Virus record (IMG/VR): IMGVR_UViG_3300046812_000144
Direction: 5' to 3' (one strand)
DNA: 20,000 nucleotides
Origin: an uncultured virus (IMG/VR IMGVR_UViG_3300046812_000144)
Taxonomy: Duplodnaviria > Heunggongvirae > Uroviricota > Caudoviricetes
The notes beneath the pieces are model-generated. The model saw only the letters and a program-made list of their open reading frames with translations. It ran no database searches and was not told the DNA's origin. The translations under genes and the position numbers were made by a program. Of this stretch, positions 3,013-20,000 are shown in pieces (the stretch's first letter is position 1; each line of letters opens with the position of its first letter).

Positions 3013-3202
3013 ACATCGGGGACAACTTCTCCGGGCTCGACGCAATGATGACCGAGCGAAGACCGAAGTCGTTGAGATACCACTCATTGCCATTCGGCAT
3101 CACGAACTTGTGGTACGTGCCGGCCGGGTTGGCGATGAGTTCGTGGCTCTTGACCTCGAAGACCTCGTTCATCCCGGTGCCGACGATACGGACAGTTTTC
3201 AC
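3011..3202 (-). CDS. Hypothetical protein (63 aa)
   Basis: GTG start at 3202 overlaps the upstream stop (GTGA) and follows GGAG. Begins VKTVRIVGTGMNEVFEVK. Confidence 0.65.
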   Translation of the reverse strand: MKTVRIVGTGMNEVFEVKSHELIANPAGTYHKFVMPNGNEWYLNDFGLRSVIIASSPEKLSPM

Positions 3203-4548
3203 GGTGTCTCCTGCCGCATGTAACGGCGGTCGCCCCGCGCGATCGCGGCAGTCTCTTCGGGTGGCGGACCACCCTCGATCTGCTCGAAGGCCCAGAGGTA
3301 GTTGTACGAGGTGTAGCATCCGACGGCAGGCCCCGGCGCGGAGCCGGCGAACTGTACATAGATGGCCGTGCGGTGCTTCGGAAGTGCGTCACCTGAAGCG
3401 ATGTTGTTGATGGTAACCGCAGTCGATTGGTTCGTCGCTACATCGGACGTGACAGACCATGAGTGCGTGTGACCCGCCGCTGCGAAGTTACCCGATGCGC
3501 CGGATGTCGCATTCTTCGAGCCGACCGAAGTACCACCGTTCACCAGATGCGTGTGCGCGTTTTGAGTCGGTTGACAGTTTACGGCCGTGTGGTTGTGGAT
3601 AAGGCCGCCGCCAGTCGTGCCAACTTCACCGTCGTTAGTTGAACCCTTAGCCCAGACAGCGTCAAGGGCTGTGTAGCGAGACCAACTAGCAGGGATTGCA
3701 CTATTGGCACCGATCCAGAGACAGATGATGCTCGTCGGAAGCGTCGCCGCGCTTGACTGGATGACATTGATCTTCGAGAACGGTGGTTCGTGGCTGGACG
3801 AGTTGATCGTCGTCGTCACGGACTGGTTCGTCGCAGTCTGTAGCGTAAGACTCACTGAGTGCGTGTGCCCCGTCGTCGCGATGGGGTCGGTGCCCGCAGG
3901 ACCCGTCCCCGAAAGAGCCGCGTTACCCGGCGTTGAAGTGACTGCGCCGTGAGTGTGCGCGTTTTGCGTGTGCGTGTGGGCCGGTGATGTGTGGGTATGT
4001 GTGTTTGCACCACCAGTTGTTCCACCATCCGTACCGGTTGCAGCCCCTTTCAGGTAGCGATCAGCATACGCGCGTGTCCAGTTCGCCGGAAAGACATCGG
4101 CTGCGAAGAAGGCGAGGCAGCCACTTGGCAAGGTCGCCGGAGTCCCATCGCTTGCGATCCAGATGACTTCGACGAAGGCGAGATCGTTGCTCGTCGCATT
4201 GACGGTGATCGCGATTCCGTTGTTCGTTGCCGTTGCGGCAGCCGAGGCAAAGGCATCGTGACCGTGGGTATCGTCTGCACCTGTACTTGCGACCGTACCG
4301 GTAAAGACGTTGAGAGCATCGCCACCCGGCGCATTGATGGTGTGCGTGTGGGCGTTCTGGACCGGGTTGTGTGAGGGTGACGTATGCGTGTGTGTCGCGA
4401 ACCCTCGGTCGGTGACGAGGTCTGTGTCAGCACCTGCCGCAGAGCCCAGAACGTAACGGGCATCGAGTGCGGTCACGCGCGTCCACCCTGTGGGGATGGA
4501 AACGACCGTCGAGGGCCACGCGACAACGATGTTAGCTGGAACCGCCAT
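3199..4548 (-). CDS. Tail-collar/His-x-His fibre-like protein with three tandem ~133-aa modules
   Basis: Each module has a collar-like P..I..W....IP..W start, a glycine-containing segment leading into H-x-H, then QNAHTH and a third HxH. The protein is T/A/G/S-rich. RBS is GAGAGGA. Confidence 0.7.
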   Translation of the reverse strand: MAVPANIVVAWPSTVVSIPTGWTRVTALDARYVLGSAAGADTDLVTDRGFATHTHTSPSHNPVQNAHTHTINAPGGDALNVFTGTVASTGADDTHGHDAFASAAATATNNGIAITVNATSNDLAFVEVIWIASDGTPATLPSGCLAFFAADVFPANWTRAYADRYLKGAATGTDGGTTGGANTHTHTSPAHTHTQNAHTHGAVTSTPGNAALSGTGPAGTDPIATTGHTHSVSLTLQTATNQSVTTTINSSSHEPPFSKINVIQSSAATLPTSIICLWIGANSAIPASWSRYTALDAVWAKGSTNDGEVGTTGGGLIHNHTAVNCQPTQNAHTHLVNGGTSVGSKNATSGASGNFAAAGHTHSWSVTSDVATNQSTAVTINNIASGDALPKHRTAIYVQFAGSAPGPAVGCYTSYNYLWAFEQIEGGPPPEETAAIARGDRRYMRQETP

Positions 4549-5030: not shown

Positions 5031-6977
5031 TCATACGGGTGCGCGGGGTGGAATCCAGCCGTCCTCCTCGAAGCCACGGACGCCGTCGTCGAGGTAACCG
5101 GAAGCCCGGAGTTCATCGCGCTCGGCCATCATGGTGAGGAGTTCGTCGTTCGTCATGGGCTTGCCCATGTCCTTCAGGTCGTCATCCCACGGGCGACGGA
5201 CTGTTGTTCCCTCGTCCTGCACGAGACCGGGGTCCGTGACGGGCGGTCGCCACAGTTTCGGGGCGAAGCCGTCAGCCGCTGCATCGGCAAGGTCGTCGTG
5301 TGAGACCGTGTCAACCTTGAGGATCTGGTTGACCATCTTCCGCACGATCGGCGTCACGATGAAGTGAGGGCACTGCACATAGACGAGCTTGTTCGTCTTC
5401 GGGTCGAGCACGGGAGGCGGGCACTTGCACTCACCCCTGTTGAGGAGGATGCGCGCGTAGCCGCCCTGCCAGTGACCGGCCGCTGTACGGATGCGGGACT
5501 TCTTGTCCTTCGTACGGTTGAACTGCATGAACTGGTCGTCGCCGAAGTTGAAGCCGGCGGTGCGAAGGAGGCCGAGGATACGGTTCTTGTAGACGCCCTC
5601 TTTGCCACCCGGCTCGGTCTCGTCCGTGATCGCGCGGATGAAGATGCCGCGACGGCGGAGGTTGACGAGGACGGCAATCAGTTCCTTGTTGAAGTCCTCT
5701 TCACGCCACTCGTTCGAGGCGCGGAGGAGTTCGGTGTCGAGGTAGAGCACGCCGTTGTTGCGGGCGTCCTTCAGCCAGACCACGATCACAGAGTCGTCAC
5801 CGCGCCCGATGTTCTCCTTGTTCTTGAACGCCGTGTCGATGTGGACGGTTGCCCACTCGACCGTCACATCCCAGATGAAGTCCGGGTAGGAGACGTAGAG
5901 CCACGGGATCTGCCCCTCGACGAGCGGAGCGTGCTCCGATGCGCCGGGGTTGTTCTGCTGCTGGCCTGCGAACTCCTCGGCGTTGATGCGCTTGCGTCGC
6001 GCGATCTCGGCCACGGTCCACATCTTCGGGTGCGTCGGTAGGCCGGTGGTCTCGTCCTCGGTCTGCCAGAAGAAGACGTGCCAGATGCCTTGGCCGAAGG
6101 GCACCTTGTCGAACATCGACATGTGCGGGCAGGGCATGCCGGTCCACGAGGCGACGCCATCCTCGTGCATGTGGTAGCCCGCGACGTCATCGTCGAGGTA
6201 CCGGGTGCATGTGAGGACACGGAGTCCGTTACGGTGGAGCGCGTTGGCCGACGACATGAAGGCTGACTTCTGCCCTCGCAGGTAGGCCGAGCGGTCCTTC
6301 TTCAGCTTCTCCTGTTCGAGCGGGTCATCCCAGAAAGACTGGCGCGGGTGGTAGCCCGTCGCGCCGATGCCGGCGGACGAGGCGTCGAACGAGGGCTCGC
6401 CGATGTTGCGGGCGCGCCGATAGGAGTGCTTGATGAATGACTTGGTGCGCTCCTGCGCGCCAGTCACCCAGTCGCCGTAGAGCCATACGAACCACGAATC
6501 CGGGTCGTGGTTCTTCCCCCCACCGCAGACTGCAAGGATTGACCCGAGGATGTCACCGGACAACTCGTCGGTCGCAGACTGGATGAGGGTCGTCATGTCG
6601 GGGTCGTTCAGGTGCGACCACAGCGACCCGGCTTTAGTCGATGAGACCGTCTTCCCGAAACCACGCGGCAGGAGAGAGATCAGGTTGTACTGCTCGGGGA
6701 TGCCAGCGAGGGCGTGAGCCTTCCACTGGAGCAGGTGAGTCTGGAGCCATGTGGTGTACGGGATGTGAAGCGGCTCGTACAGCCACTGGGGCTCTGCGGG
6801 ATGCGACGCGAGGTAGTGCTCCGCGCCCCATGCGTGGCGAAGGAAGTGCCACAGGGAGCGAGGGTGCGTCGACCGCATGGGGTTTACATGCCACGCTTCC
6901 GGCGCGCAGATCGCCCGCCAGAGGACCCGCTCGGCTTCCATGTCCCAGTCTTGACGAAGCGCAGAAACTTGAGCCAC
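5031..6977 (-). CDS. terL: Terminase large subunit
   Basis: Walker A LLPRGFGKT, Walker B FWDDP, coupling motif TRY, and nuclease acidic motifs HIDTA, GDDS and HDDLADA. GTG start follows GGGAGG; an alternative ATG lies at 6940. Confidence 0.9.
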   Translation of the reverse strand: MAQVSALRQDWDMEAERVLWRAICAPEAWHVNPMRSTHPRSLWHFLRHAWGAEHYLASHPAEPQWLYEPLHIPYTTWLQTHLLQWKAHALAGIPEQYNLISLLPRGFGKTVSSTKAGSLWSHLNDPDMTTLIQSATDELSGDILGSILAVCGGGKNHDPDSWFVWLYGDWVTGAQERTKSFIKHSYRRARNIGEPSFDASSAGIGATGYHPRQSFWDDPLEQEKLKKDRSAYLRGQKSAFMSSANALHRNGLRVLTCTRYLDDDVAGYHMHEDGVASWTGMPCPHMSMFDKVPFGQGIWHVFFWQTEDETTGLPTHPKMWTVAEIARRKRINAEEFAGQQQNNPGASEHAPLVEGQIPWLYVSYPDFIWDVTVEWATVHIDTAFKNKENIGRGDDSVIVVWLKDARNNGVLYLDTELLRASNEWREEDFNKELIAVLVNLRRRGIFIRAITDETEPGGKEGVYKNRILGLLRTAGFNFGDDQFMQFNRTKDKKSRIRTAAGHWQGGYARILLNRGECKCPPPVLDPKTNKLVYVQCPHFIVTPIVRKMVNQILKVDTVSHDDLADAAADGFAPKLWRPPVTDPGLVQDEGTTVRRPWDDDLKDMGKPMTNDELLTMMAERDELRASGYLDDGVRGFEEDGWIPPRAPV

Positions 6978-8639: not shown

Positions 8640-9034
8640 CTAGCCTCCTTGTCGGAGTCGATGAGTTTCGCGTTGATCGCCTCGGTCCACAGAGACACGC
8701 GCTTTGGTGACTTACGAATGTAGGCGACCATGTGTGCATCCATGGCGAGCGCGAGGACCTCGTCGAGGTCGTCCTTGAAGCGCCCAAGCGACATGGGGTA
8801 CACCATGACGTGGAGCAGTTCGTGGACCACGGTGCCGATGTGGTCGACGTTGCCCGTCTGTTGGTTTGCGTCGACCTTGATCTTGATGTCGGTCGGCGGC
8901 ATGATCTCGTTCCAGAGGTTGTGCCCCTGCTGCGCGGTCATGTGCTGATAGGTGAGCGTGACTTCAGGGTGCCGGAGAAGTTCCAGCATCACCCGGTGGA
9001 GCGACTGTGTCGATAGTGGATACGAGCCCTTCAT
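8636..9034 (-). CDS. Putative zincin-like metallopeptidase
   Basis: HEXXH motif (VVHELLHV) with downstream acidic residues (DE). RBS is GGAGGA. Confidence 0.6.
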   Translation of the reverse strand: MKGSYPLSTQSLHRVMLELLRHPEVTLTYQHMTAQQGHNLWNEIMPPTDIKIKVDANQQTGNVDHIGTVVHELLHVMVYPMSLGRFKDDLDEVLALAMDAHMVAYIRKSPKRVSLWTEAINAKLIDSDKEAR

Positions 9035-9611
9035 GAGCTTCCTCCCTCGCTTCGAGGCGGGATGAGAGAGCCCTAACGACGTCGGCTGCCGGGTAGGAGG
9101 CGAAGAGCACCTCGACTACGAAGTCGACGTCGGCGATCGACGAGGTCAGGTCCTTGTAGCGGGTGAAGGCCATGGCGCGCGTGAGGGGCGGGCCCGGCCC
9201 AAGGTCACGGATCTTGACGGCATCGCGGAGCTTGCCCCACTGGACGGAGGCGCTCATGCGCGTGTCGGCATGGAGCTTGGGGTCGAAGGCGAAGCGGATG
9301 CACTGCTTGAGCATGCGCTTCTGGACTTCGTCGTCGTCGAGGTCTTCGAGGAGCGACATGTCAGCGAGTGCCATCATGGCGTCGTGGTCGAGCATCCCCG
9401 AGGGCGGGGCCGGATCGGCCGGTGTGGCGTCGGGTAGGACGGAGGTCGCCTTCCGCGAGGGCGCGAGCTTGCCCTCCTCGACGAGACCCTTGCGCGCGAT
9501 GGCGATGAGGGCCACCGAGCAACCGGTACCAGCCGCCTGCTGCTCCTTCGTCTCGTCGGGGTGCGCGAGGATGTAGAGTCGGGCCTTCTGGAGCTTCGTC
9601 TGGGGGGCCAT
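8964..9611 (-). CDS. N-terminal HTH protein, candidate terminase small subunit
   Basis: ATG at 9611 follows AAGGAG. HTH-like segment TKEQQAAGTGCSVALIAIARK. It is the first gene of the packaging operon; the TerS call is positional only. Confidence 0.55.
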   Translation of the reverse strand: MAPQTKLQKARLYILAHPDETKEQQAAGTGCSVALIAIARKGLVEEGKLAPSRKATSVLPDATPADPAPPSGMLDHDAMMALADMSLLEDLDDDEVQKRMLKQCIRFAFDPKLHADTRMSASVQWGKLRDAVKIRDLGPGPPLTRAMAFTRYKDLTSSIADVDFVVEVLFASYPAADVVRALSSRLEAREEAHEGLVSTIDTVAPPGDAGTSPAP

Positions 9612-9718
9612 AGGAACTCCTTGCAAAGGTTTGACGTTAGATACGTCCGAGTATATGGACGGGACAGGGGCTGCCCACAAAGTCATGACATCCATGCGGG
9701 TCACTGGGGGGCCCTTGC

Positions 9719-9734
9719 TGGCACGCATCTTGCT
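9719..9734 (+). promoter_or_regulatory. Sigma-54 -24/-12 box 1
   Basis: TGGCACGCATCTTGCT matches the consensus TGGCACG-N4-TTGCW exactly. Confidence 0.75.
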
Positions 9735-9736
9735 TG

Positions 9737-9752
9737 GGCAAGGACCATGCCA
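9737..9752 (-). promoter_or_regulatory. Sigma-54 -24/-12 box 2 (faces the packaging operon)
   Basis: Reverse complement TGGCATGGTCCTTGCC, with GG-N10-GC spacing. Confidence 0.7.
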
Positions 9753-9758
9753 CGCTGC

Positions 9759-9774
9759 TGGCACGCTCTATGCG
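9759..9774 (+). promoter_or_regulatory. Sigma-54 -24/-12 box 3
   Basis: TGGCACGCTCTATGCG, with GG-N10-GC spacing and a -12 element of ATGC. Confidence 0.6.
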
Positions 9775-9777
9775 TAG

Positions 9778-9793
9778 AGCAAGGCCCGTGCCA
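9778..9793 (-). promoter_or_regulatory. Sigma-54 -24/-12 box 4 (faces the packaging operon)
   Basis: Reverse complement TGGCACGGGCCTTGCT is an exact consensus match. Confidence 0.75.
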
Positions 9794-9907
9794 CAGGTCG
9801 GTGGGTAACTCTAGTGTACCACGTTCCACCTTGCAACGCCCCCCGCATGCGCCACGAAGCGTGTTACCACACGCAATGAGCCCGGCGGGCGGAGCGCGGG
9901 ATGCCGG

Positions 9908-9925
9908 TGTGTCCATCCTGACACG
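9908..9925. promoter_or_regulatory. Candidate enhancer-binding-protein site (TGT-N10-ACA)
   Basis: TGTGTCCATCCTGACAC lies about 140-200 bp upstream of the predicted starts of boxes 2 and 4, and resembles the site at 10213. Confidence 0.4.
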
Positions 9926-9977
9926 GTCAGTTTCTAGCCGCTCCTCCCTCGCTGGCCCTGTCCGGGCAGAAGTGCCC

Positions 9978-10002
9978 TAACCCCATGGCGCACAAGCACT
10001 TA
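9978..10002. promoter_or_regulatory. IHF-like dyad site
   Basis: TAA-CCCC-ATG-GCGCA-CAA-GCAC-TTA; contains the CAA-N4-TTA core of the IHF consensus. Confidence 0.45.
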
Positions 10003-10082
10003 GACCATTCGCTCCCAGACGCTCTAGGATGCCCCACAATCGCGTCGGCCCCCCTCCGAGGATGGCCGCACGGGGATTTACC

Positions 10083-10107
10083 TAAGTCGTTGTCGCCCAT
10101 GCATTTA
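10083..10107. promoter_or_regulatory. IHF-like dyad site
   Basis: TAA-GTCG-TTG-TCGCC-CAT-GCAT-TTA, exactly 105 bp from the previous copy; both copies are followed by CCATTCG. Confidence 0.45.
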
Positions 10108-10212
10108 CGCCATTCGAGCCCGCTGGCGCTCGCCCGTCTCCGGGCATCCTAGGAGGCCGAGAACGCCCTCTCATTGACAACGCCTACACAAAACCGTTTC
10201 ACTCTGCACCAC

Positions 10213-10229
10213 TGTGGCAACTTTGACAC
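10213..10229. promoter_or_regulatory. Candidate enhancer-binding-protein site (TGT-N10-ACA)
   Basis: TGTGGCAACTTTGACAC lies about 135-150 bp upstream of the predicted start of box 5. Confidence 0.4.
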
Positions 10230-10307
10230 ATGGACGCGCGAAACGCCTCGGGCGTTCTGCCCCGAAACACGTTGCGCTTTGCCCCAATCTGTGAGATGCT
10301 CCTCCTG

Positions 10308-10332
10308 TAAGTCATTGTGCTGCAACGTGACA
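10308..10332. promoter_or_regulatory. IHF-like site immediately upstream of sigma-54 box 5
   Basis: TAA-GTCA-TTG-TGCTG-CAA, at the usual IHF position between the activator site and the -24 element. Confidence 0.5.
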
Positions 10333-10336
10333 ATCG

Positions 10337-10352
10337 TGGCACACGGATTGCA
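10337..10352 (+). promoter_or_regulatory. Sigma-54 -24/-12 box 5 (faces the early arm; predicted +1 near 10363)
   Basis: TGGCACACGGATTGCA matches TGGCAC-N5-TTGCA. Confidence 0.75.
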
Positions 10353-10362
10353 CTGTTCCATG

Positions 10363-10950
10363 GTGGTAGCACGGTCGCCGGTCCGAAACCGGCGCGCGAC
10401 ACCGGAACGCACCGGCAGCCCGCCCTGATAACCGTATCTCGGTGGACGGCAAGCCGGCCGGCCCCGCGAGGGGCACCCGACAGGGCACACGGTGGAGTGA
10501 CAGGGGAATCGGATGCACGCACAAGGCCCGCAGCACGCGAGCCCAACGCGGCCCCCACGGTCACATATGATGGACGCCGGCACACGCGAGCGGTCGCGGT
10601 GACGGGCAGCGCACGCAGTGCCACCACCCAACAGAGCCCTTCGGGGACAGCGAAGTCGAGGGTGTCAAGCGTGCGACAATGCCCCGAGCGAAGCGCCAGA
10701 CTGTAAGGTGTCCAGACTGTAGCACCCTGCTACGCTTCACCCTGCACTTACATCCCGGCCACCGCACGAACCAACGGCAACGCGAGCAGCGCGAGGGAAG
10801 CCCCGCGAGCCTGCACCGCCGCCACCTCGTGCGGGGCCGGAGTGTAAGCGCAACAGTGTATCTTAAGAACCTACTACAACACCTGTGTGAGAGTCCCACC
10901 CCGTTACGGCGGGGGGTGGGCCCCCTCACGACGGTGTAAGGGGTGGGGGC
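10363..10950 (+). ncRNA. Candidate long structured RNA or leader
   Basis: No convincing gene here, and many stems: 10376-10394, GCCCC-GCGA-GGGGC (GNRA loop), CCC-TTCG-GGG (UUCG loop), 10422-10427/10481-10486, 10560-10564/10599-10603, 10719-10733, 10800-10837 and 10895-10920. Confidence 0.4.
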
Positions 10951-11071
10951 CACAATGTGTAAGCCCCGCGAAGCGCCCCCTCTGGCTCTGTACCAAAACG
11001 CCGCCCTTCAACCAGAATCGCGTCGCACCCCTCACCACGCACAATCGCACCCCTTCCAATGCGGAGGCTCC

Positions 11072-11317
11072 ATGTTCAAGCACCTGAAGCGCGCCACCCT
11101 CGTCGAGTGTGAGTCCAACGACGCAGCCGGAAACGACCTGTACCTCATCGCCGTCTGGGCCGATGACGCCGAGACGCAGTCCGCCACCGTGTGGTGCGCT
11201 GAAGTCTTCCGCAACGGCGGCTCCATCGTCCGCTGCTGGCACCCGACGCGCCGTGCGGCCGTCGCGTGGGCCAAGAGCGAAGTCGAGGCCGACATCCGCG
11301 TGTCGGTGCTCCGATGA
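11072..11317 (+). CDS. Hypothetical protein, first gene of the early arm
   Basis: ATG follows GGAGG; begins MFKHLKRATLVEC; C-ending codons dominate. Confidence 0.75.
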   Translation: MFKHLKRATLVECESNDAAGNDLYLIAVWADDAETQSATVWCAEVFRNGGSIVRCWHPTRRAAVAWAKSEVEADIRVSVLR

Positions 11318-11487
11318 CCTGCCGCTCGCCCAAGCACCCGTTCGTCGTGGAACTCCTCCTCAAGGGCCGCTGGCGCATCGAACAGACGTTCGCCGAGCGC
11401 GACGCTGCCCGCGACTTCGCCGTCCAACTCCTCACCAGTGGCGTGCTCCGCGAGCCCATCCGCGTCCGCGCTCGCAAGGTGGCCTGA
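11314..11487 (+). CDS. Hypothetical protein (57 aa)
   Basis: ATGA overlap; begins MTCRSPKHPFVVELLLKGRW. Confidence 0.65.
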   Translation: MTCRSPKHPFVVELLLKGRWRIEQTFAERDAARDFAVQLLTSGVLREPIRVRARKVA

Positions 11488-15180: not shown

Positions 15181-15249
15181 CCAATCGCGCACCACGCGCG
15201 GGAGGTGGGGGGCGCGCATCCTAGAACGCGCAGTGACCTTGGAGGCAAC

Positions 15250-16023
15250 ATGAAACTCTTCCTTGTCGGTGGCACCGTCCGTGACCACCTGTTCGGGCTG
15301 CCGCAGGGGAACGATGTCGACTTCGCTGTCGAGGCCGAGTCGTTCGCTGAGATGGAGACGGTGCTCGTCGCACGCGGCCTGCGCGTCTGGCAGTCGCGGC
15401 CCGAGTTCGTCACGCTCCGAGGGCAGATGCCGCTCTCGGCGCTCGGCACCTTCGGGGGCCTGCTCGGGTTGCGTGGGGGCAAGCACGGCAAGGCGTCTTT
15501 CAATCCCGAGCACGTTGTAGTCGATGCCGACTTCACCCTCTGCCGTGCCGAAACTCAGTACAGCGATGGTCGGCACCCGGACAAGGTGACGCCTGCTGAC
15601 CTGCTCACAGACCTCGCGCGCCGTGACTTCACGGTGAACGCTGTCGCCGTCAGCGAGGACGGTCAGTGGGTCGATCCGTTCCGTGGTCGGCGTGATGCCG
15701 AGTACAAGGTTCTCAGGTGTGTGGGTTCCGCGCTCCACCGTTTCGAGGAGGACCCACTGCGCCTGCTCCGTGCTCTCCGCTTCGCTGTCAAACTCGACCT
15801 GATGCTGGATGTCTGGCTCAGTCGAGCCCTCGACGACATGGCCGTCGTCAACCGCCTTGCCACGCTGCCGGTCGAGCGTGTCAGGGAGGAGCTTGGCAAG
15901 TCGTTCGCACACAACTGGCTCGCAACCGCTCTCGCGCTCGCGACCGACTTCACCACCGTCGGCCACGCTGTGCAAGAGCACTTCCCCACACTGTGGCTGA
16001 AGGCCACGACAGAGGAGAGATAA
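15250..16023 (+). CDS. cca: Class II tRNA nucleotidyltransferase (CCA-adding/poly(A) polymerase family), short form
   Basis: Motif A VGGTVRD...DVD, motif B DLARRDFTVNA, motif C DPFRG..D, motif D FEEDPLRLLRALRF and motif E ERVREEL. RBS is GGAGG. Confidence 0.9.
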   Translation: MKLFLVGGTVRDHLFGLPQGNDVDFAVEAESFAEMETVLVARGLRVWQSRPEFVTLRGQMPLSALGTFGGLLGLRGGKHGKASFNPEHVVVDADFTLCRAETQYSDGRHPDKVTPADLLTDLARRDFTVNAVAVSEDGQWVDPFRGRRDAEYKVLRCVGSALHRFEEDPLRLLRALRFAVKLDLMLDVWLSRALDDMAVVNRLATLPVERVREELGKSFAHNWLATALALATDFTTVGHAVQEHFPTLWLKATTEER

Positions 16024-16024
16024 C

Positions 16025-16408
16025 ATGAAGTTCGACATCAGCAACATCGGCGACTACGACATCATGAGCGCACTTCGTGGGCCGGATGCCTCCACGAGTG
16101 CAGCGACACACGCGAAGCACTTGACGACCTCGGTGCTTCGCAACCTCGCTGGCATGGAACGCAATGACAGGTGCGTCATCTTCACGCCGGACGAGGCGGC
16201 CCGCGAGTGGGAGATGGCACCCCTCCATGAGAAGCTCGCGGTGCTCGACTTCATGAACAGCAACTACCACTTCGAGTCCCACTTCCGCCGGGCGCTGAAC
16301 GTGATGGCAACGCGCGGTGTTCCCGGTGTGGCGGCGTACAAGAAGTGGTACTTCGACAATATCGACGGCCCTGCGCGCGTGCGCGCGGCGCTGCCGGTGA
16401 GCGTGTGA
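16025..16408 (+). CDS. Hypothetical protein (127 aa)
   Basis: RBS is GAGGAG; starts 1 nt after the upstream stop. Confidence 0.75.
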   Translation: MKFDISNIGDYDIMSALRGPDASTSAATHAKHLTTSVLRNLAGMERNDRCVIFTPDEAAREWEMAPLHEKLAVLDFMNSNYHFESHFRRALNVMATRGVPGVAAYKKWYFDNIDGPARVRAALPVSV

Positions 16409-16611
16409 TGCACCTCCACCTGCTCCCGTCCCAGTGGCTGATCGCTGGCATCGGTGTCCTGATGCTCATCATCATCGAGGGTGCCGTCATCGGTGGCATC
16501 CGAGACTTCTGGCGTTGGAAGTCCTACGGCATGGCGTGGATCGGGGTCATGTTCCTGTTCATCGTCCCTGCCCTCGCAACCGCGCTCGTGCTGAATGCCT
16601 GCGGCCACTAA
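16408..16611 (+). CDS. Small membrane protein with two hydrophobic segments
   Basis: TGATG overlap. Hydrophobic segments WLIAGIGVLMLIII and WIGVMFLFIVPALATALVL. Confidence 0.7.
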   Translation: MHLHLLPSQWLIAGIGVLMLIIIEGAVIGGIRDFWRWKSYGMAWIGVMFLFIVPALATALVLNACGH

Positions 16612-16804
16612 GCGCACCCTGACCGTCATGTTCCGCCAGACGCCGGCCGGCCTGCTCGGGTCCGGCGTCGTGGAGGACGACGACCTGTTCCGCAACACGC
16701 TCTTCGCATCACTCGACGAGGCGCTCCGCTACATGCAGAGCCGCTACCAGACCGCCTACAAGGTCATCCTGAACATCCCCTCCAACGTCAAGAGGAACAC
16801 ATGA
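16595..16804 (+). CDS. Hypothetical protein (~69 aa)
   Basis: Fills the gap between neighbours with GC3-rich codons; the start is uncertain. Confidence 0.6.
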   Translation: MPAATKRTLTVMFRQTPAGLLGSGVVEDDDLFRNTLFASLDEALRYMQSRYQTAYKVILNIPSNVKRNT

Positions 16805-17097
16805 AGATCGAAGTCCGCTTCCGCGACTACGTCAGCAGCGAGTACCCCCGTGTCACCGCGTACGAAGTCCGCTTGAAGGGCAGGCGCACATGGGAGTACA
16901 TCACCATCCACGTCAGTCGTGTCCTCCGTGAGCACTTCGGCTCGCTCACCGACAAGTGGGTGCGCGTGAGTACGACCAAGGAGAAGGGAGCATTCAAGCT
17001 CCCGACCGACGCACGCCGAAGCCTTTGTGAGCGTGGTGTGAAAGACTTCTTCGGCCGTATCCCGACGGGTGGCCTGTACTTCACGGTCATCAAGTGA
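16801..17097 (+). CDS. Basic hypothetical protein (98 aa)
   Basis: ATGA overlap; RBS is GAGGA. Confidence 0.75.
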   Translation: MKIEVRFRDYVSSEYPRVTAYEVRLKGRRTWEYITIHVSRVLREHFGSLTDKWVRVSTTKEKGAFKLPTDARRSLCERGVKDFFGRIPTGGLYFTVIK

Positions 17098-17300
17098 AGA
17101 CGACCGTCCTCACCTCGCTCGTGCAGGCGCAGAACTCGGCGGCTGCCATGGACGAGATCGACCACGCCATCGTTGCCCTCCGCCGGGCGCAGGTCTACCT
17201 CGAATCGGCCGGCCGATTCCCAGACGCAACGAGGGCGGCCGAACGGGCGTTGAAGCTGGTCGACTTCAAGTTGGCGCTCCAGCGTCGGTACGCATCATGA
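17094..17300 (+). CDS. Hypothetical helical protein (68 aa)
   Basis: GTGA overlap at the start and ATGA overlap at the end. Confidence 0.65.
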   Translation: MKTTVLTSLVQAQNSAAAMDEIDHAIVALRRAQVYLESAGRFPDATRAAERALKLVDFKLALQRRYAS

Positions 17301-17509
17301 GCCGCATCCTCGCGAAGGGCGAGGTCGAGCACAAGATCAGGCTCGACTACATCCTCCCGGCCAACTGGGAGGAGGCGAACAACAAGTTCGGTGGTGGCTA
17401 CATCACGATCACCGAGGTCGCCAAGGTCGCAGTCGACAAGTACATCTCGAACGTGATGGCGATGCAGAAGGCCATCGAGGAGATCCGCCGTGGCACGCAA
17501 ACACCGTAA
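17297..17509 (+). CDS. Hypothetical protein (70 aa)
   Basis: ATGA overlap; begins MSRILAKGEVEHKIRLDY. Confidence 0.7.
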   Translation: MSRILAKGEVEHKIRLDYILPANWEEANNKFGGGYITITEVAKVAVDKYISNVMAMQKAIEEIRRGTQTP

Positions 17510-17729
17510 GGCAGGCATCGTCAAGCAGGGCATCGCGAGTGAGATCGTGAAGCCCGAGAAGCGGACGACCGAGCGCAAGGTCATCCAGAACGCGACGACC
17601 GGTGAGTTCGAGGTCGTGCATGTCGAGACTGTCACGCCGGCCGTCGTCAAACAGGGCAAGGCGTACGGCAGCACGCTCAAGGGCCGAGGGAAGCCCAACA
17701 CGCCGCCAGCGACTGGAGGCAAGAAGTGA
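17490..17729 (+). CDS. Basic hypothetical protein (79 aa)
   Basis: GTG start follows GAGGAG; K-rich. Confidence 0.7.
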   Translation: MARKHRKAGIVKQGIASEIVKPEKRTTERKVIQNATTGEFEVVHVETVTPAVVKQGKAYGSTLKGRGKPNTPPATGGKK

Positions 17730-18076
17730 GTCCCACGAAACTCGCAGAACTCGTCCCACACAAGTTCCTCGACGGGCCGCTGGCCGGCCGTACGATCGAC
17801 CTGCCCCGTGGCACCGAGACGTTCCTCATCGGGCCCCGGTGCTCGCCGCTCTTCACGTACGAGTACGCCGGCAAGGACGGCATCACCGTCCTGCTCGCGA
17901 AGCGTGGCCGCAGCCGGCAGCTTCGCCGGCTCGTGCTCGACTACATCGGCAAGAAGGGCAAGCACCCGGCGCTCGTCGCCCTCGGTTGGCGGCGTCATCC
18001 GACCGTCGGCAAGACGGTCAAGACAGGCAAGGGCGCTGCTGCCCGTGCCGCGAAGAAGGCGGTCCCAAGTGCATAA
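17726..18076 (+). CDS. Basic hypothetical protein (116 aa)
   Basis: GTGA overlap; RBS is GGAGG. Contains FLDGPLAG. Confidence 0.7.
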   Translation: MSPTKLAELVPHKFLDGPLAGRTIDLPRGTETFLIGPRCSPLFTYEYAGKDGITVLLAKRGRSRQLRRLVLDYIGKKGKHPALVALGWRRHPTVGKTVKTGKGAAARAAKKAVPSA

Positions 18077-18245
18077 GGTGCTCTGGCTGATCCGCTGGCC
18101 ATTTGTTCTCGTGGTCGCGCTCGTCGCGTTCCCGTTCGCCCTCGTTGCGAGCGTCGCGGCGTGTGACCCCAACACACTCATGCAGTGGTGGGACGATGGT
18201 GAGCACGGCGTCCGGCCGTGGCTCTTCGACTGGACCCGTGTCTGA
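18069..18245 (+). CDS. Small membrane protein (58 aa)
   Basis: GTG start with an 8-nt overlap. Hydrophobic segment WPFVLVVALVAFPFALVASV. Confidence 0.6.
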   Translation: MHKVLWLIRWPFVLVVALVAFPFALVASVAACDPNTLMQWWDDGEHGVRPWLFDWTRV

Positions 18246-18495
18246 GATCCAGATCATCGCGATCCAGAACCCGGCCGGCCGCAAGCACGAACACGTTCGC
18301 GTCTTCGGCTACCGGCTGACTGACACCCTGCGTCGTGTCGTCGAGGTTGCCGTGACGATGGCTGACGCGGCCGACCTGATCGCGGATGCCGCTGCCCTGA
18401 AGGAGTTTCCCACCATCGAGGTCGACGACAAGCACGTCGTTGGCTGCCTCAACACAGGAGACATCGAGATGATCCACATGAAGGAACAGCCGTGA
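18238..18495 (+). CDS. Hypothetical protein (85 aa)
   Basis: GTG start with an 8-nt overlap; begins VSEIQIIAIQNPAG. Confidence 0.65.
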   Translation: MSEIQIIAIQNPAGRKHEHVRVFGYRLTDTLRRVVEVAVTMADAADLIADAAALKEFPTIEVDDKHVVGCLNTGDIEMIHMKEQP

Positions 18496-18911
18496 AGAAG
18501 CCATCCATGACGGCAGCATCCCGGCGGCTCTTTGCGGAGGCCCGCGCCCGCGAGCGGCACGAGTTCGGCATCCCGACGCCGAAGAAGCCAACCGTGGGTG
18601 AGCAGGATCGGCTCATGGGCAACGAAGAAGACGATCACGAATACGCATTCGTCATGCAGCCGGAGATCGAAACACAACTGACACAGCCGGGGTCATCCCT
18701 GACGGGCAACTCCATCCTCTGGGAGCTATTCGACGACCGTATGAACGGGAAGATCGCGCCCTTCAAGCCGGGTCCCATCGGTGCCTACAAGCGCCGGCCG
18801 GTGCCCAAGCCCTTCACCCTCAGCAACTGGCCGGAACTGGAGCGCAAGGCGATGCTGGAACTCCGGGCCAAGAACGATGCCGCACTCACTGCACTGGAGG
18901 GAAGCCTGTGA
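18492..18911 (+). CDS. Hypothetical protein (139 aa)
   Basis: GTGA overlap; RBS is AAGGA. Confidence 0.7.
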   Translation: MKKPSMTAASRRLFAEARARERHEFGIPTPKKPTVGEQDRLMGNEEDDHEYAFVMQPEIETQLTQPGSSLTGNSILWELFDDRMNGKIAPFKPGPIGAYKRRPVPKPFTLSNWPELERKAMLELRAKNDAALTALEGSL

Positions 18912-19444
18912 CATCCTACGAAGAACGCCGTGAACTGATGCACATGGCCGAGGCCGTGCGTGAGGAACTGCGCTCGGTCACGAAGCGTGTCCACCTGCTC
19001 ATCAACAAGATCATCGGCGAGGGTGACGCGCTCATGCTGGCGGCAGCCGACGAGCGGTCGGCCGGCATGGAGACGACCGTGAAGGCCGTCAAGTACAACG
19101 GCATCGGCAAGGTGACCGAGGTGGTCGAGAAGACCCTCGGTGTGTCGCTGCCCTCGCTCGGAGGGAAGACACGGATGGCGAATGTCGTGCCGGGGACTCC
19201 GCCATACATCTCGGCCCCGACGCCTGCCCCGGCCGGCAAGCGTGCGTGCAGTGCCTGCCACTCGCTGGAGCCGTACCCGCACCGGGCGAAGAACTGCCCC
19301 AACGCGCACCTGCTCCAGCAGCAGAAGAAGGCCGAGGTCGCGGCCCGTCCTATCAAGAAGCTCCGCGAGCCGATGTCGGCAGAGCGGCGTGCGAAGGCGG
19401 TCGAGTCGCTCAAGAAGGCCCGTGCAGCAAGGAAGCCGAAGTGA
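18908..19444 (+). CDS. Hypothetical protein with a zinc-knuckle-like CCHC motif and basic tail
   Basis: GTGA overlap; RBS is GGAGGG. Contains CSACHSLEPYPHRAKNC and ends REPMSAERRAKAVESLKKARAARKPK. Confidence 0.75.
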   Translation: MTSYEERRELMHMAEAVREELRSVTKRVHLLINKIIGEGDALMLAAADERSAGMETTVKAVKYNGIGKVTEVVEKTLGVSLPSLGGKTRMANVVPGTPPYISAPTPAPAGKRACSACHSLEPYPHRAKNCPNAHLLQQQKKAEVAARPIKKLREPMSAERRAKAVESLKKARAARKPK

Positions 19445-19527
19445 CGCTGGTCGGGATCGTACTGCTCCTGCTGTATCTCCTTCATCAGCCGGCGAAGCAC
19501 CGCCGGCACAAGTGGTGGGACGAATGA
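19441..19527 (+). CDS. Small single-pass membrane protein (28 aa)
   Basis: Overlaps neighbours at both ends (GTGA, ATGA). Sequence VTLVGIVLLLLYLLHQPAKHRRHKWWDE. Confidence 0.55.
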   Translation: MTLVGIVLLLLYLLHQPAKHRRHKWWDE

Positions 19528-19781
19528 CGCTACCCGAGAAGTTCATCGAACAGATCAACAAGGCCATCGACGACTACGACAACGGCAAGCTGACTCGCGC
19601 CGGCCTGTCGGTCACCGTCCGTGAGGTCATCGAGAAGTCAGCCAACGAGGCGTACGAAGCCGGCCACTCCGAAGGTTGGGACGATGGCTACGCGGACGCC
19701 GAGAACGAGATCGACCCCGACGACGAGATCGAACTCGACATCGACCTCGACAACATCGAAGACGACGAGGAGGACGCATGA
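19524..19781 (+). CDS. Hypothetical protein with a GxxxG repeat and very acidic C-terminus (85 aa)
   Basis: ATGA overlap. Contains AYEAGHSEGWDDGY and ends EIDPDDEIELDIDLDNIEDDEEDA. Confidence 0.7.
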   Translation: MTLPEKFIEQINKAIDDYDNGKLTRAGLSVTVREVIEKSANEAYEAGHSEGWDDGYADAENEIDPDDEIELDIDLDNIEDDEEDA

Positions 19782-19843
19782 GACTCACCCCGCATGAGAT
19801 CGTGTCCATCATCCTCGCATTCCTGAAAGGGCTCACCCAGTGA
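19778..19843 (+). CDS. Possible 21-aa hydrophobic peptide
   Basis: ATGA and GTGA overlaps; RBS is GAGGAGG. Sequence MRLTPHEIVSIILAFLKGLTQ. Confidence 0.5.
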   Translation: MRLTPHEIVSIILAFLKGLTQ

Positions 19844-20000
19844 CCCAGAACCAGTTCGACATGGCGTTGCTCGACATCATCGAAGACACGCCCCGTGGTA
19901 AGAAGGTCGACATGCACGCGGCCATGCACACGCTTCAGGACAAGGGGCTCCCGCGTGAGCCCGGCCTGTGGACATCTCGGCTCGACGCCTTCACACTCGG
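19840..20000 (+). CDS. Hypothetical protein (partial)
   Basis: GTG start follows AAAGGG; the frame is open to the window edge. Confidence 0.55.
   Translation, partial: MTQNQFDMALLDIIEDTPRGKKVDMHAAMHTLQDKGLPREPGLWTSRLDAFTL

What the first reader, a model, noticed from the sequence alone, without database searches (positions are those of the whole stretch)
9716..9796. Four sigma-54 boxes in 75 bp, arranged as two head-to-head pairs
Seen: boxes in +,-,+,- orientation, all GG-N10-GC, two of them perfect consensus. The -12 elements of each pair are only 2-3 bp apart, and the two repeat copies differ mainly at non-consensus positions. Known: sigma-54 holoenzyme binds -24/-12 as a stable closed complex until an AAA+ activator acts. 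Inference: each predicted start lies inside the opposing box, so occupancy within a pair should be mutually exclusive. The array could be an early/late toggle, a roadblock silencing the packaging operon, a decoy titrating host sigma-54, or a bound-protein landmark for the terminase. I do not know of a described phage element like this.
Basis: partly seen in the sequence, partly recalled or inferred. Interest (0 to 1): 0.9.

Follow-up and report, generated by a model that had tools for sequence, protein, structure and literature searches.

The report
Phage sigma-54 docking palindromes before packaging genes
A soil phage carries, at the head of its DNA-packaging genes, two palindromes each made of two facing docking sites for the bacterial sigma-54 RNA polymerase; similar palindromes turn up in many unrelated phage sequences but hardly ever in bacterial genomes, and what switches them on is unknown.

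Summary
Four sigma-54-type boxes lie at 9719-9793 as two head-to-head dyads of 34 and 35 bp. A fifth box at 10337 was not in the finding. The pattern TGGCAY-N6-TGC gives 5 hits against 0.38 expected. All five lie in the 1.46-kb gap between the packaging and structural arm (minus strand) and the replication arm (plus strand).

Relatives whose flanking gene is 45% identical, and a third, more distant relative, keep such dyads while the surrounding DNA has diverged.

The same dyad occurs in at least 122 viral contig stretches (GC 34-68%). A reversed control gave 0, and 596 Gb of prokaryote genomes gave only 34. Unconstrained positions follow the sigma-54 consensus, and the arms are not complementary between the two elements, so this is a protein site and not a hairpin.

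In 10 fairly complete phage genomes, 60 of 71 boxes sit in one cluster per genome. In 8 of the 10, that cluster lies upstream of terminase genes.

None of 48 phage records encodes a sigma-54 activator or a sigma-54.

Best reading (0.45): host sigma-54 polymerase docks here and, once activated, fires in both directions. Rival readings are silent docking, a terminase landmark, or another protein.

This scan noted such dyads before on other DNA. My searches found no paper describing them.

The parts
9719..9733 (+). sigma-54-type box 1 (TGGCACG-N4-TTGC, followed by T); predicted start about 9745
   Evidence: start rule from PMC4591121 passage
9738..9752 (-). sigma-54-type box 2 (TGGCATG-N4-TTGC, followed by C); predicted start about 9726, 115 nt before the first leftward gene
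9759..9773 (+). sigma-54-type box 3 (TGGCACG-N4-ATGC); predicted start about 9785
9779..9793 (-). sigma-54-type box 4 (TGGCACG-N4-TTGC, followed by T); predicted start about 9767
9719..9752 (.). dyad 1: boxes 1 and 2 head to head, 34 bp, 4-bp centre
   Evidence: the same architecture in viral contigs
9759..9793 (.). dyad 2: boxes 3 and 4 head to head, 35 bp, 5-bp centre; centre 40.5 bp from that of dyad 1
10337..10351 (+). distal single sigma-54-type box pointing to the replication arm; kept with the same following bases in two relatives
10363..11071 (+). conserved non-coding stretch downstream of the distal box. It is probably a structured leader or non-coding RNA. Its first hairpin keeps pairing through changes on both sides.
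   Evidence: no Rfam match
9650..9677 (-). weak sigma-70-like promoter candidate (TGGGCA-16-TATACT) between the dyads and the first leftward gene
   Evidence: a similarly placed TGCGCA-16-AAAATA in the 45% relative is my reading
9859..9874 (.). 16-bp palindrome about 100 and 140 bp upstream of the two leftward boxes; a candidate activator or operator site, and only a lead
   Evidence: kept in part in the 45% relative; I did not find it at that place in the third relative
8964..9611 (-). first gene of the leftward arm (215 aa). No family match. By position it is a possible small terminase or DNA-binding protein.
   Evidence: relatives
5031..6977 (-). terminase large subunit, 2.6 kb downstream of the dyads on the same strand
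   Evidence: phrog_38, E 2.6e-30

Best explanation
The four boxes are docking sites for the host's sigma-54 RNA polymerase, built as two dyads in the phage's single control region. That region lies between the packaging and structural arm and the replication arm. Each dyad offers the enzyme two opposite ways to sit, and probably only one can be used at a time. The enzyme waits as a closed complex. When an ATP-driven activator acts, it starts either leftward into the packaging operon or rightward, from points 18-19 bp apart. The phage does not encode that activator in any recognisable form. The dyads would thus be compact, enhancer-gated, two-way start sites at the head of the late genes. Shown here: the sequence match, the conservation, the restriction to phages and the position. 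Inferred: binding by sigma-54 polymerase, mutual exclusion within a dyad, firing, and timing.
For: Not chance: there are 5 boxes against 0.38 expected, and all lie in the 1.46-kb control gap.

Conserved: the relative whose flanking gene is 45% identical has 8 boxes, two of them head-to-head dyads at a similar distance from that gene. A third relative has 9 boxes there.

Matches the sigma-54 consensus at free positions: in 166 half sites from other viral contigs, the unconstrained positions follow the sigma-54 consensus as I recall it. T stands before TGGCA in 57%, T before TGC in 67%, and A or T after the GC in 84%.

Not a hairpin: the bases between the two elements are not complementary between arms (120 of 390, 31%).

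Widespread in phages, rare in bacteria: the dyad occurs in at least 122 viral stretches, against 0 for the reversed control. Only 34 occur in 596 Gb of prokaryote genomes.

One cluster per genome: 60 of 71 boxes in 10 phage genomes lie in one cluster per genome. In 8 of the 10 that cluster is upstream of terminase genes, mostly where genes diverge.

Terminase neighbours: 31 of 75 other loci have a terminase gene within 2.5 kb.

No better promoter nearby: only one weak sigma-70-like promoter is seen in 9300-11400, and no sigma-70-family factor is found in this phage or its two relatives.

The distal single box looks like a working promoter: conservation begins at the box and runs downstream into a hairpin kept by changes on both sides.

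A host-linked case: a dyad heading a terminase operon lies on a 669-kb Methylotenera contig whose genome has rpoN at 224.6 bits.
Against: No activator was found. 0 of 47 dyad-bearing viral records, and not G001 either, encode a Sigma54_activat domain, although sigma-54 needs one without exception (passage of PMC4591121). No activator site is established; the 16-bp palindrome at 9859-9874 is kept in only one of two relatives.

The host is unknown, so rpoN in the host is unproven.

Bacteria, which have many sigma-54 promoters, almost never use this dyad. The dyad may therefore serve something other than plain promoter work.

With my crude gene calls, more dyads lie between same-strand genes (17) than between diverging genes (14), and 47 of 88 fell inside short open frames that I could not judge.

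The test of single-box orientation was inconclusive: 15 with the gene direction and 13 against.

No expression data exist.
Confidence: 0.45

Rival explanations
1. Silent docking. Sigma-54 polymerase binds the dyads but is not meant to fire. The parked enzyme shapes what its neighbours do, for example by damping or insulating the nearby sigma-70-type promoter of the packaging operon or by holding polymerase at the control region. This would resemble the 'repressive promoters' reported for E. coli RpoN.
For: No activator is found in 48 phage records. The dyad form is specific to phages. A conserved weak sigma-70-like promoter lies 42 bp beyond dyad 1. E. coli RpoN holoenzyme can interfere with RpoD holoenzyme at a promoter (passage of PMC8743547), and sigma-54 represses where its site overlaps another promoter (passage of PMC4591121). 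Dense tandem arrays with a 26-28 bp period in another phage contig (L035) look like more sites than genes need.
Against: The dyads do not overlap the sigma-70-like promoter. The distance from dyad to that promoter differs between relatives (61 against 79 bp, my count), which speaks against a fixed contact. Intragenic sigma-54 sites in E. coli did not lower expression of the overlapping genes (passage of PMC4591121). A perfect -12 element is kept, as in regulated promoters.
Confidence: 0.25
2. Landmark. The polymerase parked at the dyads marks the place where another phage machine assembles, most likely the terminase at the start of packaging, or else the replication start.
For: The cluster is single in each genome. 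It lies next to terminase genes in 8 of 10 genomes and in 31 of 75 loci. There is a precedent in phage T4: binding of the large terminase gp17 to the late sigma factor gp55 is thought to help load terminase on the genome (passage of PMC3012670).
Against: Position upstream of the first late gene is equally what a promoter needs. Other dyads lie next to primase, helicase, methylase or anti-restriction genes. In records with terminal repeats the dyads are not at the ends (contig positions, end classes). No contact between sigma-54 and any terminase is known to me.
Confidence: 0.12
3. Another protein, phage-encoded or a host factor other than sigma-54, reads the dyad as a symmetric operator.
For: Palindromes are the usual form of sites for dimeric proteins. 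Spacing is tight: 94 of 124 head-to-head pairs have 3-8 bp between them and none has 0-2. The first leftward gene is unassigned and could bind DNA.
Against: The half site is a two-block, 15-bp match to the sigma-54 promoter, and it also occurs alone. The motif is the same in phage lineages from 34 to 68% GC that share no small protein at BLAST level. A phage protein and its site would be expected to drift together.
Confidence: 0.1
4. Decoy. The sites soak up the host's small pool of sigma-54 to shut off its stress or defence regulons.
For: Closed complexes form whatever the growth condition (passage of PMC4591121). Replicated phage DNA would multiply the sites.
Against: There are only 5 sites per genome here. 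A fixed place upstream of the packaging genes is not needed for a decoy. The dyad form halves the number of enzymes held per box.
Confidence: 0.05

Closest known systems
Bacterial sigma-54 (RpoN) -24/-12 enhancer-dependent promoters (for example glnA and pspA, named in PMC4591121)
   Same: The GG-N10-GC frame and the longer consensus TGGCACG-N4-TTGCW are shared (consensus recalled). The holoenzyme binds as an inactive closed complex and needs an ATPase activator (passages).
   Different: Here two sites face each other with only 4-5 bp between their -12 elements, a form almost absent from prokaryote genomes (34 stretches in 596 Gb). No activator gene or proven activator site goes with them. They are in a lytic-looking phage.
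Symmetry-driven bidirectional sigma-70 promoters of E. coli and Salmonella (PMC12825309 and PMC10268837; only the search listing and the start of each abstract were seen)
   Same: A near-symmetric sequence lets polymerase sit in either of two orientations, one binding event excludes the other, and transcription diverges.
   Different: Those rest on the symmetry of the sigma-70 -10 element and fire without an activator. Here whole sigma-54 promoters are mirrored and would stay locked until activated.
'Repressive promoters' of E. coli RpoN holoenzyme (PMC8743547) and transcriptionally silent sigma-54 sites (PMC4591121)
   Same: Sigma-54 polymerase bound without firing, with possible effects on neighbouring promoters.
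   Different: Those are single sites scattered through a bacterial chromosome. These are paired, clustered at one locus per phage genome, and tied to the packaging operon.
T4 late transcription and packaging coupling (gp55 with gp17; PMC3012670)
   Same: A sigma factor at late promoters is thought to help load the terminase.
   Different: T4 uses its own sigma-like protein and a different promoter. No link between sigma-54 and a terminase is known.

Membership tests
sigma-54 (RpoN) -24/-12 promoter | GG and GC doublets ten bases apart within TGGCAC-N5-TTGC | tested here: met
   All four boxes and the distal fifth match. Free positions in 166 half sites from other phage contigs follow the longer consensus. 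The consensus itself is recalled.
sigma-54 (RpoN) -24/-12 promoter | Bound by sigma-54 holoenzyme as a closed complex | not testable with these tools
   This needs a gel shift, a footprint or ChIP.
sigma-54 (RpoN) -24/-12 promoter | An enhancer-binding AAA+ activator and its upstream site | tested here: inconclusive
   No Sigma54_activat domain was found in G001 or in 47 other dyad-bearing viral records. A host activator cannot be excluded. The 16-bp palindrome at 9859-9874 lies about 100 bp upstream of box 4's predicted start, but it is kept in only one of two relatives.
sigma-54 (RpoN) -24/-12 promoter | Transcription starts about 12 bases after the GC | not testable with these tools
   No RNA holder is listed. 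Indirect support exists only for the distal box, where conservation and a covarying hairpin begin just downstream.
sigma-54 (RpoN) -24/-12 promoter | The host encodes rpoN | tested here: inconclusive
   The host of this phage is unknown. The phages encode no RpoN: 0 of 47 records are over the cut-off, and G001 has only a 10.7-bit match on the antisense of a real gene. One host-linked look-alike lies in a Methylotenera genome that has rpoN.
Hairpin element (terminator or REP-like palindrome) | Arms complementary along their whole length | tested here: not met
   Bases between the two elements match between arms at 31% (17-35% at the four free positions). No terminator-like site was found in 9300-11400.
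Operator of a phage-encoded dimeric regulator | Site and binding protein specific to one lineage and found together | tested here: not met
   The same motif occurs across about six lineages that share only polymerase, portal, terminase and a tail-spike-like protein at BLAST level. Single half sites also occur. Remote similarity was not tested.
Symmetry-driven bidirectional promoter | Two opposed starts a fixed short distance apart from one symmetric element | tested here: inconclusive
   The geometry fits: predicted starts are 19 and 18 bp apart. Of the dyads whose flanking genes I could call, 14 of 33 lie between diverging genes and only 2 between converging genes. No transcripts are available.

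The most novel reading that the evidence does not exclude
Phages from many lineages have adopted the host's locked sigma-54 polymerase as a ready-made, universally conserved DNA-bound module. They unlock or exploit it by a means that is not an AAA+ enhancer-binding protein. One possibility is a small phage factor that frees sigma-54 from its activator requirement, giving the phage a private transcription channel for late genes. Another is use of the parked enzyme as the loading mark for the terminase. Either would be a new way of using sigma-54.
Probability: 0.25. Interest if true: 0.92.

Novelty: new variant of a known kind. Interest (0 to 1): 0.8.

Why it matters
Sigma-54 promoters are known as a bacterial device that stays locked until an ATPase activator opens it. 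Here complete sigma-54 sites are mirrored into dyads that phages use widely and bacteria hardly at all. They are placed at the one control locus of the genome, usually before the packaging genes, in phages that carry no activator.

If the sites fire, phage late or two-way transcription would hang on a host signalling state or on an unknown unlocking factor. If they do not fire, phages are using a parked polymerase as a structural mark.

Either answer would add a new chapter to sigma-54 biology and to phage gene timing. It would also give a simple sequence flag for the control region of uncultured phages and a hint that their hosts carry rpoN.

Tried and rejected
Expression data: no RNA holder is listed among 22 runs that hold the stretch, so starts could not be mapped and read laying was not used.

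Rfam: no match in 9400-11300.

Close cultured relatives: DNA search of the phage collection with 9000-11000 found nothing. The terminase finds only Erwinia phage Pecta at 23.5%.

Cultured relatives of two other dyad-bearing lineages: I found them by terminase. The two records I scanned, Caulobacter phage GB2A and an uncultured spring phage, have no such dyad. So no laboratory system was found.

Orientation of single boxes against the local gene strand: 15 with and 13 against. My gene calls were crude, and halves of dyads were partly counted as singles, so this is inconclusive.

Gene context of dyads: 47 of 88 fell inside short open frames that are probably not genes, so only 33 could be classed.

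A shared phage partner protein: all-against-all BLAST of ten genomes gave only DNA polymerase, a tail-spike-like protein, portal and terminase as families spanning lineages. Remote homology was not explored.

Phage sigma-54: the 10.7-bit match in G001 lies antisense to a real gene. A 13-bit match in another record holds two stops.

Identity of the 215-aa first gene: no Pfam, PHROG or PDB sequence match.

Earlier notes on this genome: none.

Host: not identified. I found no usable route with the tools left.

Full report
WHAT IS THERE

The window is part of a phage of 63% GC. Its first 15,180 bases are 99.6% identical to a 63.6-kb viral record, G001, rated 99% complete.

Genes on the minus strand from 9611 down include a large terminase (5031-6977), a tail protein, an exonuclease and an SU10-type portal. 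In G001 this arm runs on through SU10-type adaptor and capsid genes. Genes on the plus strand from 11072 onward, and their continuation in G001, are of the early and replication kind: a tRNA nucleotidyltransferase, RtcB, an RNA ligase, NAMPT, a helicase and a family-A DNA polymerase.

Between the arms lies a 1.46-kb stretch (9612-11071) in which I saw no convincing gene. It has no Rfam match.

The four boxes of the finding stand at its left edge, at 9719-9733 (+), 9738-9752 (-), 9759-9773 (+) and 9779-9793 (-). A fifth box at 10337-10351 (+) was not in the finding.

The pattern TGGCAY-N6-TGC has 5 matches in the window against 0.38 expected, and none of 200 shuffles reached 5. The whole of G001 has the same five and no more.

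ANATOMY

Each pair is a dyad: TGGCAYG, four free bases, (T/A)TGC, a centre of 4 or 5 bases, then the mirror image. The lengths are 34 and 35 bp, and the centres are 40.5 bp apart.

I used the E. coli rule that the start lies 19 bp downstream of the motif centre (passage of PMC4591121). The plus boxes would then start at 9745 and 9785, and the minus boxes at 9726 and 9767. Each start therefore falls in the middle of the opposing box.

The two RNAs of a dyad run apart without overlap. The two binding sites overlap almost fully, so one holoenzyme per dyad is the likely limit (inference).

The centre of the dyad is the place just downstream of both -12 elements. That is where sigma-54 makes its fork junction and where the bubble begins (passage of PMC5095919). 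In other phage dyads this centre is 75-80% A+T.

CONSERVATION IN RELATIVES

A search with the 215-aa first leftward gene found eight viral loci.

Five loci are close kin of the window; one is identical over the region compared and four are about 96% identical there. In the four diverged ones the 81-bp array carries 0 or 1 change, at a non-consensus base, while the neighbouring 104 bp carries 8.

Two loci at 45% protein identity (record G046) have an otherwise poorly alignable control region. They still keep two head-to-head dyads at a similar distance before the gene, a back-to-back pair, and two single boxes: 8 boxes in all.

A third relative, G027, shares many proteins. It has 9 boxes there, including one dyad.

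All three lineages keep a distal single box followed by the same bases. Conservation starts at that box and runs downstream. The first hairpin downstream keeps its pairing through changes on both sides at five or six pairs between the window and G027. This is what a working promoter with a structured leader would look like. It is indirect evidence, from two sequences only.

A PHAGE-WIDE ELEMENT

The same pattern read backwards found none.

The 80 loci fetched range from 34 to 68% GC.

In 166 half sites from 83 distinct dyads, the positions I had left free follow the sigma-54 consensus as I recall it. T stands before TGGCA in 57%, T before TGC in 67%, and A or T after the GC in 84%.

The four free bases between the elements match between arms no better than chance (17-35%), so a hairpin is not what is selected.

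Of 124 distinct head-to-head pairs, 94 have 3-8 bp between them, with peaks at 4 and 7, and none has 0-2. Back-to-back pairs favour 5-10 bp and 20 bp. Alternating arrays are common, with up to four dyads in a row.

The dyad pattern found only 34 stretches in 596 Gb from 185,579 prokaryote species. Of these, 13 or 14 carry further boxes and sit mostly on short metagenome-bin contigs that look like phage. Several others are perfect hairpins of another kind.

My estimate of chance for this pattern is about 7e-12 per base, which is roughly 4 in that collection. The size of the viral collection in bases is not given to me, so I state no fold enrichment beyond these counts.

WHERE IT SITS IN PHAGE GENOMES

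In ten fairly complete dyad-bearing genomes (about six lineages by shared proteins), 60 of 71 boxes lie in a single cluster of at most 1 kb per genome.

In 8 of the 10 (4 of the 6 lineages), that cluster lies upstream of the terminase genes, 0.25 to 2.9 kb away on the promoter side. Mostly this is where the two gene arms diverge.

Among 75 other loci, 31 have a terminase gene within 2.5 kb. Only the two longest open frames per locus were scanned. Two loci of the window's own kin and three loci from contigs already represented were left out. The rest lie by primase or helicase, methylase, anti-restriction, epimerase or unknown genes.

With crude gene calls, 33 dyads could be classed. Of these, 14 lie between diverging genes, 17 between same-strand genes and 2 between converging genes. 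The other 47 of 88 fell in short open frames of doubtful reality, and 8 were at locus edges.

One host-linked case exists. On a 669-kb contig of a Methylotenera genome bin, a dyad stands at a diverging junction heading an operon that ends in a large terminase. That genome has rpoN at 224.6 bits.

WHAT IS MISSING

Sigma-54 needs an ATPase activator without exception (passages).

G001 has no Sigma54_activat domain, and nor do 47 other dyad-bearing viral records, 8 of them rated at least 90% complete. None encodes a sigma-54 DNA-binding domain above the cut-off.

G001 and its two relatives have no sigma-70-family factor either, so this phage seems to rely on host polymerase throughout.

The simple promoter scan finds only one weak sigma-70-like site in 9300-11400, on the minus strand at 9677-9650. 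A similarly placed pair of hexamers stands in the 45% relative (my reading).

A 16-bp palindrome at 9859-9874 lies about 100 bp upstream of the start predicted for box 4, which is where activator sites usually sit (recalled). It is partly kept in G046, but I did not find it in G027.

No RNA data are listed. The host is unknown.

READING

That sigma-54 polymerase is the binder I hold at about 0.8. The reasons are as follows:
- Two blocks match at the right spacing.
- The free positions agree with the consensus.
- The boxes also occur singly.
- The motif is unchanged across phages of very different composition, which points to a highly conserved host protein and not to phage proteins that would drift with their sites.

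What the dyads do is open. I commit to enhancer-gated, two-way start sites at the head of the late genes (0.45). The position is that of a promoter. No better promoter is visible for either 30-kb arm. Diverging contexts are over-represented. The distal box behaves like a promoter.

Silent docking (0.25) is the main rival. It rests on the missing activator and on the near absence of the dyad from bacteria. E. coli offers precedents: silent sigma-54 sites, and interference with sigma-70 polymerase at the promoters that PMC8743547 calls repressive.

A landmark for the terminase (0.12) has a precedent in the T4 gp17-gp55 contact (passage of PMC3012670).

Another binder (0.10) and a decoy (0.05) are less likely.

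PRIOR KNOWLEDGE

Five full-text searches on sigma-54 or RpoN in phages found no paper on such dyads. The library does not hold most subscription journals, so this is not proof of absence.

Earlier notes of this scan, which are AI notes on other genomes, describe the same kind of dyad. One says it recurs in hundreds of viral contigs and almost never in bacteria. I repeated that comparison here and agree. Another places such dyads upstream of sigma-70 early promoters. Here a weak sigma-70-like site lies beyond dyad 1, but the spacing is not kept in the relative.

- One cluster per genome.
- The tie to the packaging operon across lineages.
- The absence of activator genes in 48 records.
- The spacing profile of head-to-head and back-to-back pairs.

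Noticed in passing
window 10337-11071 (+): A single sigma-54-type box is followed by about 700 bases of conserved non-coding sequence. Conservation with relative G027 begins at the box. The first hairpin keeps pairing through changes on both sides at five or six pairs. This is possibly a structured leader or a long non-coding RNA of the replication arm. Rfam has no match.
   Followed up: partly
window 10010-10061, 10024-10034 and 10142-10152: A roughly 50-base element occurs once here and twice in relative G027 (about 35199-35260 and 35520-35570 of that record). Its core, CTAGGATGCCC, recurs inverted about 110 bases further on in the window. Its function is unknown.
   Followed up: no
window 9859-9874: A perfect 16-bp palindrome (6-bp arms, 4-bp centre) lies about 100 bp upstream of the leftward boxes. 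It is partly kept in the 45% relative. It could be an activator or operator site.
   Followed up: partly
window 15205-16023; G001 41927-43192, 50517-51491, 45114-47604: The phage carries an RNA-repair and NAD-salvage set: a tRNA nucleotidyltransferase, RtcB, an RNA ligase, a NUDIX protein and NAMPT. This is the kind of kit phages use against host tRNA- or NAD-targeting defences.
   Followed up: no
window 15181-20000: The window and its nearest record G001 are 99.6% identical up to 15180 and then diverge sharply, with only two short stretches at 75-81%. This is a mosaic break in the early arm between very close phages.
   Followed up: no
locus L035 3080-3240: Another phage contig (43% GC) has five near-perfect sigma-54-type boxes in tandem at a 26-28 bp period, followed by two decayed copies, ahead of a small gene. 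That is far denser than one promoter per gene.
   Followed up: no
window 3199-4548 (-): The tail protein (phrog_5795) is rich in repeated His-Thr-His motifs, which is unusual in composition.
   Followed up: no
locus L082: One dyad lies beside a gene matching the Zot-like assembly ATPase family of filamentous phages, so the dyad may not be limited to tailed phages.
   Followed up: no
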